Shown: positions 3,370 through 43,940 of the stretch, one piece after another
How positions within the stretch are numbered: position 1 is the first letter of the stretch
How the letters are laid out: each line of letters starts with the position of its first letter
Assembly: GCA_041657885.1 (NCBI GenBank)
Contig: JBBABB010000001.1
Coordinates: 267,184-331,183 of the forward strand
From: Minisyncoccota bacterium
GTDB taxonomy: Bacteria; Patescibacteriota; Minisyncoccia; Phycocordibacterales; UBA9973
DNA: 64,000 nt
Direction of reading: 5' to 3'
The notes under the pieces: generated by a model
Database searches by the model: none
The model's input: only the letters and a program-made list of their open reading frames with translations
Told to the model about the DNA's origin: nothing
Translations under genes and position numbers: made by a program

Positions 3370-5076
3370 TTAGTGATATAAGTCAAAGTATTCTGGAGTA
3401 TAAACACTTATATAATCTATGACTTCGCTCATTACTCGAGTTGCATTACCTGATGCTGCTTTGGGACCACGCTCCATAACGAGGGCAAAGGCATATTTAG
3501 GATTATCATACGGGAAAAAACCTATTATCCAAGAGTTTGTATTTGTATTACCAAGTCCGACTTGTGCCGTACCAGACTTGGCAGCAACTTTTACATTTAC
3601 TAGATTAAGCGCTGTCGCAGTCCCCTCTGTTACTGCCATTCTCATACCCTCGTGTATAACATTTATATTATTGGCATCAACGGGAATAGTTATTTTTTGT
3701 GATTCAAAACTGCTATCTGCAAGAGTAATATGCGGAGTATAAATTGTTCCCATATTTGCAATTCCTGCTATTGCTTTTACCATTTGAATAGGAGTCACTT
3801 GAAAACCATACTGACCAATGGCAGTATTATAAGTATCACCAACTCGCCATATTTCCCCTTTAAATGTTTTTGTTTTCCATTCTGGAGTCGGGATTGTGCC
3901 GTCCTTTTCACCATTAAGATTAATCCCTGTCTTTTCTCCTATTCCAAATAATCTTGAATATTTATCAATATTTACTATACCTAAACCTTTTTGACTTTCA
4001 TATCCACCACCTATTTCATAAAAATATACGTCAGAAGAAATTGCAATCGCTTTTCTCATATCCACATAACCGAAAGTCCCGTGGTCCTTAAATACCGATT
4101 TTTTATCTGGAAAATAAGGATTAGGAATAGAAATTGACCCATTTGAGAAAATTACCTTTAATGGACTAATAATATTCTCAACTAACGCTCCATATCCCAA
4201 AAATGGTTTTATTATAGAACCTGGACTATACAATCCAGAAATAGTACGATTCAAAAATACTTTTCTTTTATCTGAAAAATATCCATTTATTGTTTTACTA
4301 TCACTGCCAAGAGATAAAACATTTCCATCGTATTCTGGAAAGCTGGTGATAGCGAGTAATTCACCAGTTTTTATATCCATAATTACTCCAGCTCCACCTT
4401 GGAAATTCACGTTTTGTGCCATCGACGATATTGAATCATACATTTTTTTTTGAATTCTGGAATCGATAGAAAGATTTATATTTTCCCCCGCTTTAGGTGG
4501 TGATATTATATTTTCTGATTGAATAACTCCATTAACATCTGTTTCTGTAATACGAACCCCATTGACTCCCGTGAGAATGTCATTATAAAAATTCTCTACC
4601 CCATCTTTACCTATAAAATTATCTTGCCAATAACGTCCAGATGAGTCTTTAGCTGGAGAGCTCACATAACCAAGAAGCAACCCAAATCCTGGGGATGAAT
4701 AATAAGATCTCTCGGGCGAAGATAATTTATTTATATCTTCCTTGTCCCATGTGTTCCAAGAAAGCAAAACTCCCTTACGATCATATATTAATCCCCTGTC
4801 AGAAAAAATAGGTTGCTTCTGGAGTGTATTATTTTCACTTTTTTTGAAATATGACCCACCTTTAATTATTTGGAGATTAAAAACTTGCCCAATGAATATA
4901 AATGATATCCCAAGAAAGAACAACCCGACCCAAAAGATAGAACGCTTTGATATTGCCTTCTCTAACCTGCCTTCAAACTGTTGTATATTAAAATTAGGTA
5001 AGTTTTTAGAATCAAGAAAAATTTCATCCGGATCAATATCTTTTTTTATTCGATTGTGATTAATGTGAAACCTCAT
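3370..5076 (-). CDS. Class B penicillin-binding protein (FtsI/PBP2-type transpeptidase)
   Basis: The 568 aa protein has an N-terminal TM anchor, a dimerisation domain and a transpeptidase domain with SXXK (SIIK), SXN (SSD) and KSGT (KSGTA) motifs. Confidence 0.85.
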   Translation of the reverse strand: MRFHINHNRIKKDIDPDEIFLDSKNLPNFNIQQFEGRLEKAISKRSIFWVGLFFLGISFIFIGQVFNLQIIKGGSYFKKSENNTLQKQPIFSDRGLIYDRKGVLLSWNTWDKEDINKLSSPERSYYSSPGFGLLLGYVSSPAKDSSGRYWQDNFIGKDGVENFYNDILTGVNGVRITETDVNGVIQSENIISPPKAGENINLSIDSRIQKKMYDSISSMAQNVNFQGGAGVIMDIKTGELLAITSFPEYDGNVLSLGSDSKTINGYFSDKRKVFLNRTISGLYSPGSIIKPFLGYGALVENIISPLKVIFSNGSISIPNPYFPDKKSVFKDHGTFGYVDMRKAIAISSDVYFYEIGGGYESQKGLGIVNIDKYSRLFGIGEKTGINLNGEKDGTIPTPEWKTKTFKGEIWRVGDTYNTAIGQYGFQVTPIQMVKAIAGIANMGTIYTPHITLADSSFESQKITIPVDANNINVIHEGMRMAVTEGTATALNLVNVKVAAKSGTAQVGLGNTNTNSWIIGFFPYDNPKYAFALVMERGPKAASGNATRVMSEVIDYISVYTPEYFDLYH

Positions 5077-39935: not shown

Positions 39936-41099
39936 TTATTTAATAACTCTTGGCAAAAGAGCACTTATCCTTGTTGTTGCTTCATAATTTATCGTTCCTG
40001 ACTCCTTAGCAATTTGTTCAGCAGTAATTTCATTTTTACCCCGCCTGCTCCCTCGTGAGGGCGGGCAGGCCTGTTTTCCTAAAATTACGACTTCATCCTC
40101 TGGCAACACATCTTTAATATGAGAAATATCAACTACAATCATATTCATAGCAACTCTCCCCAAAATTTTTGCTCTCTTACCTTTTACTAAAACTTCCCCA
40201 GTATTTGAAAGCAGACGTGGAATACCATCAGCATAACCCTGTGGAATTACTGCTATCTTGGTCGTTTTCTTTGTTATATATGTAAGCCCATAACCGATTG
40301 GATGATTCGCGGGGAGAACTTTAATCTGAGCTACGTGTGTCACCCATTTCAAAACTGGTTTCAAAATTATTTTCTTTTTATTTAAATATTCTAAATGTTC
40401 ACTTGGCCACATTCCATAAAGCCCGATACCAAGTCGAACAATATTGTGTAAGCTATTTCCTTTTTCATAAACTAGAATTCCAGAAGTTGCTGAAATGTGG
40501 GTTTTAATATTTTCAAAACTATTTTTTCTAAAAATTTCTACACATTTATGATACATATCTATTTGTTTCTGTGCGTAGGTGAAATTCATGGTGTCTTCAA
40601 TATTTGCAAAATGAGAATAAATTCCATCGAGTTCTATATTCTTCAACTTTTTGAGTTCAACAATAAAATTATCAATCTGGCTTGGCATTATTCCTTCTCT
40701 ACCAAGACAAGAATCAATAGCAACATGTACTTTGACTTTCATTTTTAAACTCCCAGCAATAAAATTTATTTTCAATAAATGAATCAAATCAAAAGCAGAT
40801 ATTATCGCTTTTGATTTTATGGCTCTTTTTATACCATCTCCATTCAAATAACCAAATACCAAAACGGGTTTATTTGTAACCTTTCCAACTCTTTCAAATT
40901 CTTCAATACTATTTACTTGGAAATAATCTGTATAAGGAGCAATAATTTTCGTCACCTCAACATCCCCATGCCCGTAAGCATTTGCTTTTATAACAGAAGC
41001 AATCTTTGTACCGTTTTTCAGTAATCCTCGAAACTGCTTGATATTATGTATCAAGTTTTCTTTTGAAATCTCTATATATGAAAGTGGTAAATTTTGCAT
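39936..41099 (-). CDS. alr: Alanine racemase with an in-frame family A palindrome insertion. Its start is revised to the internal Met because the longer ORF overlaps tRNA-Leu.
   Basis: ASVIKANAYGHGDVEV contains the PLP-lysine motif and the fold is Alr-like. QACPPSRGSRRGKNEI is encoded by ccccgcctgctccctcgtgagggcgggcagg at 40039-40069. The track ORF 39936-41177 would overlap the tRNA at 41102-41183. Confidence 0.75.
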   Translation of the reverse strand: MQNLPLSYIEISKENLIHNIKQFRGLLKNGTKIASVIKANAYGHGDVEVTKIIAPYTDYFQVNSIEEFERVGKVTNKPVLVFGYLNGDGIKRAIKSKAIISAFDLIHLLKINFIAGSLKMKVKVHVAIDSCLGREGIMPSQIDNFIVELKKLKNIELDGIYSHFANIEDTMNFTYAQKQIDMYHKCVEIFRKNSFENIKTHISATSGILVYEKGNSLHNIVRLGIGLYGMWPSEHLEYLNKKKIILKPVLKWVTHVAQIKVLPANHPIGYGLTYITKKTTKIAVIPQGYADGIPRLLSNTGEVLVKGKRAKILGRVAMNMIVVDISHIKDVLPEDEVVILGKQACPPSRGSRRGKNEITAEQIAKESGTINYEATTRISALLPRVIK

Positions 41100-41101
41100 T
41101 G

Positions 41102-41183
41102 TGCCGGAGGAGAGAATCGAACTCTCACCCCTTACGAGACACGATTTTGAGTCGTGCGCGTCTACCAATTCCGCCACTCCGGC
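41102..41183 (-). tRNA. tRNA-Leu (anticodon CAA), type II with a long variable arm
   Basis: The minus-strand read GCCGGAGTGGCGGAATTGGTAGACGCGCACGACTCAAAATCGTGTCTCGTAAGGGGTGAGAGTTCGATTCTCTCCTCCGGCA has anticodon loop CTCAAAA and T-loop TTCGATT. Confidence 0.8.
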
Positions 41184-41220: not shown

Positions 41221-42384
41221 TTATATTATCTCCGGTTCTTGCTCTAGTGTTATCCCAAATTTTTGCTCAACTATTTTTATTATTTCATTTCTAGCATTTA
41301 TAAGATCTTCTTTTGTAGCATTTCCGTTGTTTACCAAGACAAGGGCATTCTTGTCATAGACAGAAACATTACCAAATGACTTCCCTTTTAATCCTGCATT
41401 TTCAATGAGCCAACCAGCGGGAATTTTTACTAGGTCTTGCCTAGTCGTTTCCAGTGGAAAAAATTTAGCATTTGGGAAATCTGCTTTAATTTTATCGGCT
41501 ACACTATTTGAAACAATAGGATTCTTGAAAAATGAACCGACATTTGGAATTTCTTTTGGGTTTGGTAATTTTTCTTTACGAATTTCAATAATTGCTTCGC
41601 GAATTTGTTTTAAATTAGGATTCTCTATTTTGTGTTCTTCGAAATATTTTGAGACGCCAGGATATCCTAATGCTGGAGAAAGGTTTTTTTCTCCTCCTTG
41701 TTGAGGAGGAGTGCCCTTTGGGGCGAGGTGGTGACTAATTAATTCTAAATCACCACCCCCTACCCCCTCCTCCAAAAGGAGGGGAGGAACTTTATTAAGT
41801 CTATATGTTACAGCGGTTATTATGTATTTCCCTTTATCTTCATTTTTGAAAATACTATCACGGTACCCAAATTTACAATCTTTATTTGAAATAGTTTTAA
41901 TTTTATTTTCTTTGATATCAAAAACCTCCACTTCCAAAATGGTATCTTTAACTTCTACTCCATAAGCCCCGACATTTTGGACTGGCGTTGCTCCAACTGT
42001 TCCAGGAATTGCCGAAAGTGCCTCTAATCCTTGCAGATTCATTTCAACAGTTTTCTCTACAATTTTGTCCCAAATCTCGCCAGCTCCAACTTTTATATCT
42101 GCATATTTTTCCGTTTCGTTCCCGCCTGCTCCCTTGTGAGGGCGGGCAGGTATTATTTCAAAACCTTTAATTTCTATTTTTATAGCAAACACATCAATAA
42201 TTCCATCCGAAAATACAATATTTGAACCCCCGCCTAATATAAAAATTGGGGTATTTTTTTCTCTTGCCATTAAATAAACATTTCCTAGCTCATCTTTTTT
42301 ATCAATTTTTACAAAATAGCGAAATTGCCCTCCTATATGTAGTGATGAATAATCCCGGATATCTACGTATTCTTGTATTTTCAT
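41221..42384 (-). CDS. murB: UDP-N-acetylenolpyruvoylglucosamine reductase MurB with two in-frame GC-rich palindromic insertions
   Basis: It has an FAD-binding domain (ILGGGSNIVF) and a MurB C-terminal domain. Inserts occur at ARPHKGAGGNETEK (family A, 42111-42140) and VPPLLLEEGVGGGDLELISHHLAPKGTPPQQGGEK (41690-41790). Confidence 0.8.
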   Translation of the reverse strand: MKIQEYVDIRDYSSLHIGGQFRYFVKIDKKDELGNVYLMAREKNTPIFILGGGSNIVFSDGIIDVFAIKIEIKGFEIIPARPHKGAGGNETEKYADIKVGAGEIWDKIVEKTVEMNLQGLEALSAIPGTVGATPVQNVGAYGVEVKDTILEVEVFDIKENKIKTISNKDCKFGYRDSIFKNEDKGKYIITAVTYRLNKVPPLLLEEGVGGGDLELISHHLAPKGTPPQQGGEKNLSPALGYPGVSKYFEEHKIENPNLKQIREAIIEIRKEKLPNPKEIPNVGSFFKNPIVSNSVADKIKADFPNAKFFPLETTRQDLVKIPAGWLIENAGLKGKSFGNVSVYDKNALVLVNNGNATKEDLINARNEIIKIVEQKFGITLEQEPEII

Positions 42385-42425
42385 ATTACTTGCAATTATA
42401 TCATATATGAGATAAAATAGTAAGT

Positions 42426-43940
42426 ATGAAAAAAGAACAAACCGAGCAACAAAAAATTGGGTATTTTATTAAGGAATTGAGAGAAAGCCGTGGTATGACT
42501 CAAGAAGCATTTGCGAAAGCACTGGAGACATCGCAAAGCTCTATTCCCCGCATGGAAAAGGGTGAGCAAAATTTCACAACTGAATTATTATTAAAAATAA
42601 GTAAAGTCCTAGACCATCAGGTTGTCTGCATAAATGATTCAATAGATTTTCAAGTACACGGCGGGAAAAAGTTAAGCGGAAGTATCAAAACAAATTTTTC
42701 TAAGAATGGTTCTGTTGGGCTTCTTTGTGCTTCACTACTCAACAAAGGGATAACAACCCTTCACGGCATCGCGCGCATCGAAGAAGTTAATCGTGTAATT
42801 GAAATCCTTGAAAGTATTGGAGTTCAAACAAAATGGGTTGGTCCAAATTCTCTTCAGCTTAATCCACCTAAACAACTAGCTTTAGAAAAAATAAATGTTG
42901 AATCTGCAGTTAAAACTCGTTCTATTGTAATGCTCATGGGTCCGCTCATACATTTATTCCCCACTTTTAAACTTCCTCACGCTCAAGGATGCAACCTTGG
43001 TAAACGCACTATCGCTGCTCACACTTATGCCCTTGAAGATTTAGGCGTAAAGATAAAGACAACTGCAACAAATTATGAAATAGAGTCCAAGAAATTAAAG
43101 CCTGGAAATATTGTCATGTATGAATCCGGAGATACTGCTTGCGAAAATGTCCTCACCGCTGCGTCAAAAATTGATGGAATCACAACTATTAGTTTCGCCA
43201 GTGCCAACTATATGGTTCAGGAAGTTTGTTTTTTCCTTGAAACACTTGGAGTAAAGATTGACGGCATTGGTACCTCTACTCTCGTTGTCCACGGAATAAA
43301 AGAAATTAATAAAAATATTGAATACTGGAATAGTGAAGACCCTATTGAATCAATGATGTTCATATCTGCAGCGGTTATCACTGACTCAGAACTCGTAATC
43401 ACCCGTTGCCCTATTGATTTCCTTTCGCTTGAATTAGAAAAAATGAAAAGAATGGGATTAAAATATAAAATATTGAAAAGATATCTCTCGTACAATGGAC
43501 GAACAAAATTAGCTGACATTAAAATACTACCTGGTAAATTAGTTGCTCTTGCTGACAAAATTTCTACAAATCCATACCCTGGAATAAATATTGATAATTT
43601 GCCATTTTTCGTACCTATTGCAATAAAAGCAAAAGGTCAGACCATGATTCACGACTGGGTCTACGAGAACCGCGCTATTTACTTCACAGAACTTAATCGT
43701 CTTGGAGCCAATGTCACTCTCGCTGATCCGCATCGGGTTTATATTCAAGGTGGTACACCATTAAAACCTGCTCAAGTCGTTTGTCCTCCTGCGCTTCGTC
43801 CATCTATGGTAATACTCGTCTCAATGCTTGCCGCTCCTGGTACTTCAATCTTGCGTAATGTCTATATGATTAATCGTGGTTATGAAGAAATAGCCGAACG
43901 TCTAAACTCTATTGGCGCTGATATTAAAATTTTGAAATAA
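42426..43940 (+). CDS. murA: UDP-N-acetylglucosamine 1-carboxyvinyltransferase (MurA/EPT family) fused to an N-terminal XRE-type helix-turn-helix domain
   Basis: Residues 10-65, IGYFIKELRESRGMTQEAFAKALETSQSSIPRMEKGEQNFTTELLLKISKVL, form a Cro/C1-type HTH. The remaining roughly 430 aa match MurA (KLSGSIKTNFSKNGSVGLLCASLL, active-site loop KLPHAQGCNLGKRTIAAH). Confidence 0.7.
   Translation: MKKEQTEQQKIGYFIKELRESRGMTQEAFAKALETSQSSIPRMEKGEQNFTTELLLKISKVLDHQVVCINDSIDFQVHGGKKLSGSIKTNFSKNGSVGLLCASLLNKGITTLHGIARIEEVNRVIEILESIGVQTKWVGPNSLQLNPPKQLALEKINVESAVKTRSIVMLMGPLIHLFPTFKLPHAQGCNLGKRTIAAHTYALEDLGVKIKTTATNYEIESKKLKPGNIVMYESGDTACENVLTAASKIDGITTISFASANYMVQEVCFFLETLGVKIDGIGTSTLVVHGIKEINKNIEYWNSEDPIESMMFISAAVITDSELVITRCPIDFLSLELEKMKRMGLKYKILKRYLSYNGRTKLADIKILPGKLVALADKISTNPYPGINIDNLPFFVPIAIKAKGQTMIHDWVYENRAIYFTELNRLGANVTLADPHRVYIQGGTPLKPAQVVCPPALRPSMVILVSMLAAPGTSILRNVYMINRGYEEIAERLNSIGADIKILK

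What the first reader, a model, noticed from the sequence alone, without database searches (positions are those of the whole stretch)
42426..43940. MurA fused to an N-terminal XRE-family HTH DNA-binding domain
The first roughly 65 residues form a Cro/C1-type helix-turn-helix (ELRESRGMTQEAFAKALETSQSSIPRMEKGEQNFTTELLLKISKVL). The rest is a full-length enolpyruvyl transferase with the catalytic Cys loop. A DNA-binding domain on the first committed enzyme of peptidoglycan synthesis is unusual. It could couple enzyme abundance or substrate state to transcription (a one-component regulator), or it could be an annotation artefact of an upstream small regulator gene fused by a missing stop.
Basis: seen in the sequence. 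Interest (0 to 1): 0.55.

Follow-up and report, generated by a model that had tools for sequence, protein, structure and literature searches.

The report
Self-regulating MurA enzyme with DNA-binding head
The first enzyme of cell-wall synthesis (MurA) in this small uncultured bacterium really is fused to a DNA-binding domain. A conserved palindromic DNA site sits inside its own promoter wherever the fusion exists, so the enzyme most likely switches off its own gene, and possibly the neighbouring murB.

Summary
Window 42426..43940 (+) is one uninterrupted 504-aa ORF with an XRE/Cro-C1 HTH (aa 15-63), a short linker, and a full MurA domain (aa 75-502) that keeps K22, N23, R91, C115, R120, D305, R371 and R397.

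It is not an assembly artefact. At least 120 protein clusters and 66 of the 80 best species-level genomes (Patescibacteria: Paceibacteria/Nomurabacteria) carry the same fusion, and the HTH is under purifying selection (dN/dS about 0.07).

The new finding is an 18-bp palindrome, TATMTCATATATGAKATA (window 42397-42414). It fills the spacer between a -35 (TTGCAA) and a -10 (TAAAAT) box, 11 nt before the ATG.
- It is present upstream of all 65 testable fused genes, whatever the upstream neighbour.
- It is absent from all 14 close relatives whose MurA lacks the HTH.
- It is also present at distant HTH-MurA-like paralogues that have lost the catalytic residues. These sit divergent to a canonical murA, with murB or a Mur ligase gene downstream.
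- The same palindrome occurs at promoters of XRE antitoxins with a closely similar recognition-helix motif.

Best reading: a bifunctional "trigger enzyme" that represses its own promoter, which here lies back to back with murB. Ligand control of binding is inferred, not shown. No paper describing this fusion was found in four full-text searches.

The parts
42426..43940 (+). HTH-murA gene: one ORF of 504 aa plus its stop codon
42444..42614 (+). XRE/Cro-C1-type helix-turn-helix domain (aa 7-63). The recognition helix region reads TSQSSIPRMEKGEQN.
   Evidence: Pfam HTH_3 at aa 15-63. AF2 helices at aa 7-21, 26-33, 39-44 and 52-61. The nearest solved proteins are dimeric operator-binding XRE proteins such as C.AhdI, XRE antitoxin 4pu3, C.Esp1396I and HipB. 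dN/dS is about 0.07.
42615..42647 (+). Linker (aa 64-74, HQVVCINDSID) between the HTH and the MurA domain
   Evidence: Lower pLDDT block (about 71). Unfused orthologues begin just before the SIDFQV motif.
42648..43937 (+). MurA (UDP-GlcNAc 1-carboxyvinyltransferase) domain, aa 75-504
42975..43013 (+). Catalytic loop LPHAQGCNLGKRT, with Cys189 (= E. coli C115; codon 42990-42992) and Arg194 (= R120)
   Evidence: Alignments. The loop has low pLDDT, as expected for the mobile MurA loop.
42397..42414 (.). 18-bp palindromic operator TATATCATATATGAGATA (family consensus TATMTCATATATGAKATA). It is the only copy in the 64-kb window, even allowing 3 mismatches.
42390..42395 (+). -35-like hexamer TTGCAA of the HTH-murA promoter
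   Evidence: TTGCA is conserved directly upstream of the palindrome in nearly all loci
42413..42418 (+). -10-like hexamer TAAAAT. It overlaps the last 2 bp of the palindrome and ends 7 nt before the ATG, with no Shine-Dalgarno sequence. This predicts a leaderless or near-leaderless mRNA.
   Evidence: (TATAAT, TATACT or TAAAAT in 50 of 66 loci),
41221..42384 (-). murB, transcribed divergently. Its start codon lies 12 nt from the other edge of the palindrome, so it is possibly co-regulated.
   Evidence: murB is divergent and adjacent in 27-29 of 66 fused loci and in none of 14 unfused loci. The same murB/murA-operator-HTH arrangement is seen in L082 and L205.

Best explanation
The gene encodes a genuine bifunctional protein. 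It is a catalytically competent MurA whose N-terminal XRE-type HTH binds, presumably as a dimer, an 18-bp palindrome. The palindrome occupies the spacer and the edge of the -10 box of the gene's own sigma-70-type promoter. Occupancy would block RNA polymerase, so the amount of MurA protein feeds back negatively on murA transcription. In this genome the palindrome lies midway in the 41-bp gap between the start codons of murA and the divergent murB, so the same binding event probably also controls murB. By analogy with BirA and PutA, binding is probably tuned by the ligand state of the MurA domain (open or closed; UDP-GlcNAc, PEP or UDP-MurNAc bound). Shown: the fusion, its conservation, the operator, its position in the promoter, and its strict co-occurrence with the HTH. 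Inferred: that this HTH is the binder, that binding represses, that murB is co-regulated, and that ligands modulate binding.
For: (1) The fusion is real and under selection. At least 120 clusters at 81-100% identity all carry PF00275 plus PF01381. 66 of 80 species genomes carry it. dN/dS is 0.07 for the HTH against 0.04 for MurA segments.
(2) The palindrome is present at 16/18 or better upstream of all 65 fused loci that have upstream sequence. 14 of its 18 positions are invariant or nearly so. This holds whether the upstream neighbour is murB, a tRNA or something else.
(3) It occurs exactly once per roughly 9-kb locus and once in the 64-kb window.
(4) None of the 14 close orthologues without the HTH (80-84% identical to the window's MurA domain by tblastn) has a match better than 14/18 anywhere. 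Their murA starts 3-15 nt after a tRNA gene in most of them (11 of 14), with no recognisable promoter of its own.
(5) Variation is symmetric. Positions 4/15 are A-T or C-G in 38 of 66 loci. Positions 8/11 are changed on both sides in L056 (TATATCACATGTGATATA).
(6) The palindrome lies between the conserved TTGCA(A) and TAnAnT boxes, with a 17-nt spacer in the window.
(7) Distant relatives found by protein search, not by motif, also carry it. P0190, P0189, P0254 and P0160 (HTH 47-56% identical) have the palindrome with 1-2 mismatches in front of their gene or operon. Background expectation is 0.01-0.04 per locus.
(8) Those paralogues have lost R91, C115 and, in four of five, R120. Three of them sit divergent to a canonical unfused murA, with murB or a Mur ligase gene downstream, and head Mur-ligase or ddl operons. 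This is the behaviour of a regulator of peptidoglycan-precursor genes.
(9) Unrelated small XRE proteins and Gp49-toxin/XRE-antitoxin operons have the same palindrome at their promoters, and their recognition helix fits the same motif ([TK]Q[SG]x[VI]A[RK]xExG).
(10) The nearest solved HTHs are all dimeric autoregulators that bind palindromes overlapping their own promoters.
Against: No binding or expression data exist; everything is comparative. The association counts are not phylogenetically independent. The minus-strand murB promoter is weak by consensus (the -35 matches only 3 of 6) and was not called by the scan. How the protein would dimerise is unknown: MurA is usually a monomer, and the HTH here has four helices with no obvious dimerisation helix. 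D369, a conserved MurA residue, is Ala in the whole family, and the protein falls below the TIGR01072 equivalog cutoff, so full MurA activity is not proven. A second murA elsewhere in the genome could not be excluded; none lies in the 64-kb window. The HTH has been lost in some lineages, so this regulation is dispensable.
Confidence: 0.7

Rival explanations
1. The fusion is an assembly or annotation artefact. A small XRE regulator gene and murA were joined by a lost stop codon or a frameshift.
For: Unfused MurA orthologues exist in 14 of 80 related genomes. Short HTH-only proteins appear in the representative library.
Against: The same in-frame architecture is found in at least 120 clusters and hundreds of independent assemblies from different projects. 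The linker is conserved and there is no stop in any frame-consistent relative. dN/dS is about 0.07 across the HTH. The two short HTH-only entries whose contigs were checked (P0129 and P0131) lie on contigs of only 572-605 nt, so they are truncated fragments. The unfused genomes lack the HTH coding sequence altogether; it is not separated off by a stop codon.
Confidence: 0.01
2. In this genome the protein is a pure transcription factor. Its MurA-like domain only senses a ligand, and the real enzyme is encoded elsewhere.
For: Such a division of labour exists in distant relatives. P0190, P0189 and P0254 have lost R91, C115 and R120 and sit beside a canonical 438-452-aa MurA. The window protein is below the TIGR01072 equivalog cutoff and has D369 replaced by Ala.
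Against: K22, N23, R91, C115, R120, D305, R371 and R397 are all retained here and in every window-type fusion examined, down to 56% identity. Orthologues without the HTH are about 84% identical and share the D369A change, so these orthologues are presumably the working MurA in those genomes. There is no second EPSP-synthase-family gene in the 64-kb window. NF006873 is above its cutoff. D369N variants of E. coli MurA occur in viable clinical isolates (PMC4790336).
Confidence: 0.1
3. The HTH does not bind DNA. Instead it is a protein-protein or localisation module, as in RodZ, whose XRE-type HTH binds MreB. The conserved palindrome would then be the site of another regulator, or simply part of the promoter.
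For: XRE-type HTH domains can be recruited for protein binding (RodZ; my own knowledge). No binding data exist. The palindrome overlaps promoter elements, so part of its conservation could reflect promoter function.
Against: The palindrome is present in 65 of 65 fused loci and absent from 0 of 14 unfused loci. It follows the HTH across very divergent paralogues and gene contexts. It is also found next to independent XRE genes whose helix-3 fits the same motif. Pfam gives no RodZ-type HTH_25 hit. Dyad symmetry with symmetric substitutions is not a property of sigma-70 promoters.
Confidence: 0.08
4. The palindrome acts at the RNA level, as a 5'-UTR hairpin that affects translation or stability, not as a DNA operator.
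For: A perfect palindrome can fold as a hairpin. The TSS has not been mapped.
Against: The palindrome lies between well-conserved -35 and -10 hexamers at canonical 17-nt spacing. The predicted TSS is therefore downstream of it, at or next to the ATG. The stem would be almost purely A-U with no loop. Co-occurrence with an HTH domain is not explained by an RNA role.
Confidence: 0.03

Closest known systems
BirA (biotin-protein ligase / bio operon repressor, E. coli)
   Same: An N-terminal HTH-type DNA-binding domain is fused to an enzyme of the pathway it controls. It binds a palindromic operator overlapping divergent promoters. It is the textbook 'trigger enzyme' (my own knowledge).
   Different: BirA has a winged HTH, not an XRE-type one, and a different enzyme class. 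Its DNA binding is known to depend on ligand-induced (bio-5'-AMP) dimerisation. Here ligand dependence and dimerisation are untested.
PutA (proline dehydrogenase/P5C dehydrogenase with ribbon-helix-helix domain) and NadR (HTH + NMN adenylyltransferase/ribosylnicotinamide kinase)
   Same: Each is an enzyme plus a DNA-binding domain in one chain that autoregulates its own pathway genes. PutA binds the intergenic region between divergent putA and putP, much like the murB / HTH-murA arrangement here (my own knowledge).
   Different: The DNA-binding folds, enzymes and pathways differ. Neither is involved in cell-wall synthesis.
Small XRE-family autoregulators: R-M controller proteins (C.AhdI 1y7y, C.Esp1396I 3clc) and TA antitoxins (XRE antitoxin 4pu3, HipB, HigA, PezA)
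   Same: These are the closest solved HTH sequences. They act as dimers on palindromes that overlap their own promoters. In metagenomes, Gp49-toxin/XRE-antitoxin operons carry the very same 18-bp palindrome.
   Different: They are stand-alone proteins of 70-120 aa, or they carry toxin-binding tails. None is fused to a biosynthetic enzyme.
Canonical MurA (E. coli 1uae, C. jejuni 5ujs and others)
   Same: Same two-lobed enolpyruvyl-transferase fold (TM 0.86-0.88). Same catalytic set of K22, N23, R91, C115, R120, D305, R371 and R397. Linked to murB.
   Different: About 27% identity only. A 74-aa N-terminal HTH and linker are added. D369 is Ala. The protein is below the TIGR01072 equivalog cutoff. 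Known MurA control acts on the protein, through UDP-MurNAc feedback complexes (for example 3su9 and 3swd) and ClpCP/ReoM proteolysis in Firmicutes (my own knowledge). It does not act through a built-in DNA-binding domain.
XRE-HTH fused to shikimate-kinase-like domain (NCBIfam NF006015 / PRK08154, 'anaerobic benzoate catabolism transcriptional regulator')
   Same: An XRE HTH precedes a small-molecule-metabolising enzyme fold. It was hit weakly by the HTH part (E 2.6e-06).
   Different: The enzyme domain and pathway are different. There is no relation to the MurA part.

Membership tests
MurA (UDP-N-acetylglucosamine 1-carboxyvinyltransferase, EC 2.5.1.7) | EPSP-synthase/MurA two-domain fold | tested here: met
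   Pfam PF00275 at aa 78-493, E 1.9e-38. The AF2 model matches MurA structures at TMt 0.86-0.88.
MurA (UDP-N-acetylglucosamine 1-carboxyvinyltransferase, EC 2.5.1.7) | Curated family HMM above its cutoff | tested here: inconclusive
   NF006873 (subfamily) scores 308 against a cutoff of 297, so it is met. TIGR01072 (equivalog) scores 296.9 against 392.7, so it is not met.
MurA (UDP-N-acetylglucosamine 1-carboxyvinyltransferase, EC 2.5.1.7) | Catalytic and substrate-binding residues K22, N23, R91, C115 (or D), R120, D305, R371, R397 | tested here: met
   All are conserved in the window protein and in 15 other operator-linked fusions. They also align.
MurA (UDP-N-acetylglucosamine 1-carboxyvinyltransferase, EC 2.5.1.7) | Conserved Asp369 | tested here: not met
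   It is Ala in the window protein, in all the window-type fusions compared and in unfused orthologues. The residue also varies in a canonical unfused MurA of a related, unidentified uncultured lineage (L082, Ile). E. coli D369N is viable.
MurA (UDP-N-acetylglucosamine 1-carboxyvinyltransferase, EC 2.5.1.7) | Enolpyruvyl transfer from PEP to UDP-GlcNAc | not testable with these tools
   This needs an enzyme assay or complementation.
XRE / Cro-C1-type HTH transcription factors | HTH_3 domain above the Pfam gathering score, with the helical-bundle fold | tested here: met
   47.7 bits against a cutoff of 23. The model has four helices at pLDDT of about 84-92.
XRE / Cro-C1-type HTH transcription factors | Cognate palindromic operator at or near the regulated promoter | tested here: met
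   An 18-bp palindrome lies in the promoter spacer. It is present in 65 of 65 fused loci and 0 of 14 unfused loci. That this HTH is the binder is inferred.
XRE / Cro-C1-type HTH transcription factors | Sequence-specific DNA binding as a dimer | not testable with these tools
   This needs EMSA or footprinting, or a multimer-plus-DNA structure.
Trigger enzymes (bifunctional enzyme-repressors such as BirA, PutA, NadR) | Active enzyme domain and DNA-binding domain in one polypeptide | tested here: met
   Met at sequence level only. Activity was not assayed.
Trigger enzymes (bifunctional enzyme-repressors such as BirA, PutA, NadR) | Regulates genes of its own pathway | tested here: inconclusive
   The operator lies at the gene's own promoter and is shared with divergent murB in 27-29 of 66 loci. 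In paralogue loci it lies between murA (with murB or a Mur ligase gene downstream) and Mur-ligase/ddl operons. There are no expression data.
Trigger enzymes (bifunctional enzyme-repressors such as BirA, PutA, NadR) | DNA binding switched by substrate or ligand state of the enzyme domain | not testable with these tools
   The existence of catalytically dead paralogues that keep the fold hints at a sensor role, but this was not tested.

The most novel reading that the evidence does not exclude
HTH-MurA would be a one-component feedback regulator of peptidoglycan-precursor synthesis across Patescibacteria. The MurA domain would act as both enzyme and metabolite sensor. Its open/closed or UDP-MurNAc-locked state would set occupancy of the palindromic operator, matching transcription of murA, murB and, in other lineages, Mur ligases, ddl, NUDIX/NTP-transferase genes and perhaps glmS to precursor supply. 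The catalytically dead paralogues next to canonical murA would be pure sensor-regulators derived from it.
Probability: 0.3. Interest if true: 0.8.

Novelty: new variant of a known kind. Interest (0 to 1): 0.62.

Why it matters
MurA catalyses the first committed step of cell-wall synthesis and is the target of fosfomycin. Its known control acts on the protein itself, through feedback inhibition by UDP-MurNAc and regulated proteolysis.

A MurA that carries its own DNA-binding domain and sits on an operator in its own promoter would be a new, directly testable example of an enzyme that regulates its own gene. It would be a trigger enzyme for the cell-wall pathway. It would also be one of the few concrete transcriptional circuits predicted for the uncultivated, genome-reduced Patescibacteria, which have few regulators.

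Two features make it a good system for studying how enzymes become transcription factors. Nature has supplied controls in the lineages that lost the HTH and operator together. The family also includes pseudoenzyme paralogues beside a canonical murA.

The operator, protein and candidate ligands are all defined, so a simple in-vitro experiment can settle the question.

Tried and rejected
(1) Artefact hypothesis. Rejected on conservation and purifying selection.

(2) Search for a second HTH copy or a second MurA/EPSP-family gene in the window. None was found.

(3) Search for further operator copies in the window at up to 3 mismatches. Only the one at 42397-42414 was found, so no wider regulon is visible in these 64 kb.

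(4) Search for a separately encoded homologous HTH in the flanks of unfused loci. Only insignificant hits appeared (E 0.9-1.5).

(5) Recognition-helix versus operator covariation. SS[IV]P goes with G15 in 30 of 32 loci, and SAVA with T15 in 28 of 34. This is suggestive, but it is confounded by phylogeny and is not used as proof.

(6) NJ tree to count HTH losses. Unfused forms appear at several places, but identities are all about 85-91% and there is no support analysis. I claim only that the fused state is ancestral, because more distant relatives are fused, and that at least one loss occurred.

(7) Metagenome scan for the palindrome to define a regulon. One glmS promoter hit (L161) is a lead only.

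(8) A minus-strand murB promoter. Only a weak -35 was found and the scanner did not call it, so it is kept as a possibility.

(9) Literature. Four full-text searches found no paper on an HTH-MurA fusion.

(10) Short HTH-only entries in the representative library. The two whose contigs were checked are contig-end fragments.
Full report
**1. Observation**

Window 42426..43940 (+) is a single ATG-initiated ORF of 504 aa with no internal stop.
- Pfam places an HTH_3 (Cro/C1, XRE-type) domain at aa 15-63 (E 1.6e-12) and an EPSP_synthase-family domain at aa 78-493 (E 1.9e-38).
- NCBIfam's MurA subfamily model NF006873 is above its cutoff (308 against 297). The equivalog TIGR01072 is below its cutoff (296.9 against 392.7), so this is a divergent MurA.
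- The best solved relatives are MurA structures (5ujs, E 3e-49).
The numbering is checked by the expected residues appearing at K22, N23, R91, C115, R120, D305, D369, R371 and R397. In the window protein all of these are conserved except D369, which is Ala.
- AlphaFold2 on a 51-sequence alignment (pLDDT 86.7) gives four helices (aa 7-21, 26-33, 39-44, 52-61), a lower-confidence linker, then a MurA fold with a low-confidence Cys loop. Foldseek matches solved MurA structures at TM 0.86-0.88. No solved structure has the N-terminal HTH.

**2. Not an artefact**

- The exact protein and at least 120 clusters at 81-100% identity, all about 500-511 aa, carry PF00275 plus PF01381. They come from NCBI, JGI, ENA and Logan assemblies named Nomurabacteria, Paceibacterota or Patescibacteria.
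- A scan of one genome per GTDB species found at least 573 related stretches. Of the 80 best, 66 encode the full fusion at 69-93% identity.
- NG86 dN/dS against the window is about 0.07 for the HTH codons and about 0.04 for two MurA segments. dS is near saturation, so these values are approximate, but the HTH is clearly under purifying selection.
- The organism is therefore a member of the Paceibacteria/Nomurabacteria (CPR). The fusion is the common state there.

**3. The key new observation: a conserved palindrome in the promoter**

Aligning the DNA upstream of the fused genes showed a striking motif that does not depend on the upstream neighbour: TTGCA(A)-n-TATMTCATATATGAKATA-(TAAT/TACT/AAAT).
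- In the window it reads TTGCAA (42390-42395), then TTATATCATATATGAGA, then TAAAAT (42413-42418). The 18-bp palindrome sits at 42397-42414. The consensus scanner calls this a sigma-70-like promoter with a 17-nt spacer.
- The -10 box ends 7 nt before the ATG and there is no Shine-Dalgarno sequence. The mRNA is therefore predicted to be leaderless or nearly so; this is an inference.
- All 65 fused loci that have upstream sequence carry the palindrome at 16/18 or better. In 47 loci plus the window it ends 10-16 nt before the start codon.
- 14 of the 18 positions are invariant or nearly so.
- It occurs once per roughly 9-kb locus. It occurs once in the 64-kb window even when 3 mismatches are allowed.
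- Variation is largely symmetric. Positions 4/15 are A-T or C-G in 38 of 66 loci. L056 has the doubly changed but still perfect palindrome TATATCACATGTGATATA.

**4. A natural control**

- Fourteen of the 80 loci encode a MurA that is 80-84% identical to the window's MurA domain by tblastn but lacks the HTH (start MKK..SIDFQVNGGKKL).
- None of them has a match better than 14/18 to the palindrome anywhere.
- In most of them (11 of 14) murA starts 3-15 nt after a tRNA gene, with no recognisable promoter of its own.
- No homologous HTH is encoded in their flanks.
- More distant relatives (53-64% MurA identity) are fused and carry the operator. The fused state is therefore ancestral, and HTH and operator were lost together. 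How many times is unresolved.

**5. Distant paralogues point to regulation of the pathway**

- A full-library HMMER search with the HTH alone found five proteins of about 500 aa: P0160, P0189, P0190, P0248 and P0254. Their HTH is 46-56% identical to the query. Their MurA-like part is 33-41% identical to the window and only 21-24% identical to E. coli MurA or to a canonical unfused MurA from the same kind of contig (L082).
- All five have lost R91 and C115, and all but P0160 have lost R120.
- Three of them sit divergent to a canonical unfused murA and are followed by cell-wall genes:
  - L082: murB, murA (438 aa, with the Cys), operator, HTH-MurA-like, ddl, Mur ligase.
  - L205: murB, murA, operator, HTH-MurA-like, Mur ligase.
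  - L204: murA, Mur ligase, 164-aa ORF, operator, HTH-MurA-like, Mur ligase.
- These loci were found through the protein, not the motif. Each has the palindrome with 1-2 mismatches in the divergent intergenic region, against 0.01-0.04 expected by chance.
- In L081 the palindrome precedes a NUDIX - NTP_transferase - HTH-MurA-like operon. This is the same gene insertion as in the window-type locus L056.
- L206 has no site, but there the gene overlaps an upstream ORF on a 2.8-kb contig.

The HTH-operator pair is thus conserved far beyond the window's clade. It stays tied to peptidoglycan-precursor genes even where the MurA-like domain can no longer be an enzyme.

**6. Independent support for the HTH-operator pairing**

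- 18 loci have an HTH-MurA fusion directly beside the site. Fifteen were aligned, and all keep the catalytic set wherever the contig covers it (two are cut short).
- At least 11 others are Gp49-like toxin / XRE antitoxin operons or small XRE genes. Their helix 3 fits the same motif, [TK]Q[SG]x[VI]A[RK]xExG.
- The closest solved HTH sequences are R-M controller proteins and XRE antitoxins (C.AhdI, 4pu3, C.Esp1396I, PezA, CylR2, HipB). All are dimeric autoregulators on palindromes that overlap their own promoters.
- The HTH and its operator look like a module borrowed from that world.

**7. Mechanism**

Best explanation (confidence about 0.7): HTH-MurA binds the palindrome that fills the -35/-10 spacer of its own promoter and represses it. 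MurA abundance is therefore self-limiting.
- In the window the palindrome is almost exactly centred in the 41-bp gap between the murB and HTH-murA start codons, 12 and 11 nt from each.
- murB is divergent and adjacent in 27-29 of 66 fused loci and in none of 14 unfused loci. Co-repression of murB is therefore plausible.
- However, the murB-side promoter is weak by consensus and was not called by the scanner.
- Ligand control is a hypothesis. By analogy with BirA and PutA, the open/closed or UDP-MurNAc-locked states of MurA could set binding. Such MurA/UDP-MurNAc complexes are in the PDB, for example 3su9 and 3swd. The existence of catalytically dead but fold-preserving paralogues is the only indirect support.

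Rivals:
- Sensor-only protein with a second murA elsewhere: about 0.1.
- Non-DNA-binding HTH, or another protein binding the site: about 0.08.
- RNA hairpin: about 0.03.
- Artefact: about 0.01.

**8. Comparison with known systems, and novelty**

- It works like the trigger enzymes BirA, PutA and NadR, and like XRE autoregulators.
- By fold, subfamily HMM and catalytic residues it is a MurA, with two caveats: D369 is Ala, and the score is below the equivalog cutoff. D369N E. coli variants are viable and less sensitive to fosfomycin (PMC4790336).
- Four full-text searches found no paper on an HTH-MurA fusion. Public annotation simply calls these proteins MurA or 'XRE family regulator'.
- I rate it a new variant of a known kind, with interest of about 0.6. 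The evidence is purely comparative but unusually coherent, and one EMSA would test it.

Noticed in passing
window 41690-41790 (minus strand, inside murB 41221..42384): murB carries an in-frame G+C-rich insertion that is absent from an orthologue (L056). It is made of three consecutive hairpin-forming inverted repeats: CCTCCCCTCCTTTTGGAGGAGGGG, GGTGGTGATTTAGAATTAATTAGTCACCACC and CTCCTCCTCAACAAGGAGGAG. It translates as LLLEEGVGGGDLELISHHLAPKGTPPQQGGEK. A second short G+C-rich insert (ARPHKGAGGNETEK) lies earlier in murB.
   Followed up: partly
window about 39990-40060 (minus strand, inside alr 39936..about 41100); tRNA-Leu 41101-41183 (-): The alanine racemase ORF has a similar G+C-rich stretch (GKQACPPSRGSRRGKNEI). 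The mechanical ORF's N-terminus (MAELVDAHDSKSC...) is really a translated tRNA-Leu gene that lies between murB and alr.
   Followed up: partly
L082 8598-11477; L204 95-5003; L205 2714-6740: Distant HTH-MurA-like paralogues that have lost R91, C115 and R120 (likely pseudoenzymes) sit divergent to a canonical unfused murA, with murB or a Mur ligase gene downstream. They head Mur-ligase or ddl operons, and the same palindrome lies in the intergenic region.
   Followed up: yes
L085, L098, L104, L112, L113, L114, L118, L129, L142, L144, L155, L157 (metagenome loci): The identical 18-bp palindrome TATATCATATATGATATA lies at the promoters of Gp49-like toxin / XRE antitoxin operons and of small XRE genes, and the XRE proteins checked (all of these loci except L144) have a helix-3 fitting the same motif. 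This suggests the HTH-operator module of HTH-MurA came from, or is shared with, toxin-antitoxin regulators.
   Followed up: partly
L161 2169-2186: An exact copy of the palindrome lies 9 nt upstream of a glmS gene (611 aa; GATase plus SIS domains), the first step toward UDP-GlcNAc. The organism is unknown. This could be a regulon member or chance.
   Followed up: no
L022 2292-2867; L036 3409-3987; L056 2727-3989; L081 8735-9996: In some genomes extra genes have been inserted between the operator-promoter and HTH-murA. They are a P-loop kinase-like protein (191 aa), a histidine-phosphatase-like protein (192 aa), or a NUDIX hydrolase plus a sugar-phosphate nucleotidyltransferase. These are candidate co-regulated functions.
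   Followed up: partly
L060-L080 unfused loci (for example L064 about 3850-3960): In most orthologues that lack the HTH (11 of 14), murA starts only 3-15 nt after the 3' end of a tRNA gene, with no recognisable promoter. This implies co-transcription with the tRNA.
   Followed up: partly
16 of 65 fused loci (for example L013, L040, L075), 6-25 nt upstream of the palindrome (at or just upstream of the -35 box): A perfect DnaA-box-like nonamer TTATNCACA (mostly TTATCCACA) lies just upstream of the HTH-murA promoter in loci where murB is not the neighbour. It is not present in the window, which has ATATCTACG inside the murB coding sequence.
   Followed up: no
window 43791-43793 (codon of Ala456): The residue equivalent to E. 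coli MurA Asp369 is Ala in all the window-type fused and unfused MurAs compared. D369N in E. coli lowers fosfomycin susceptibility (PMC4790336), so these MurAs may bind PEP or fosfomycin differently.
   Followed up: partly
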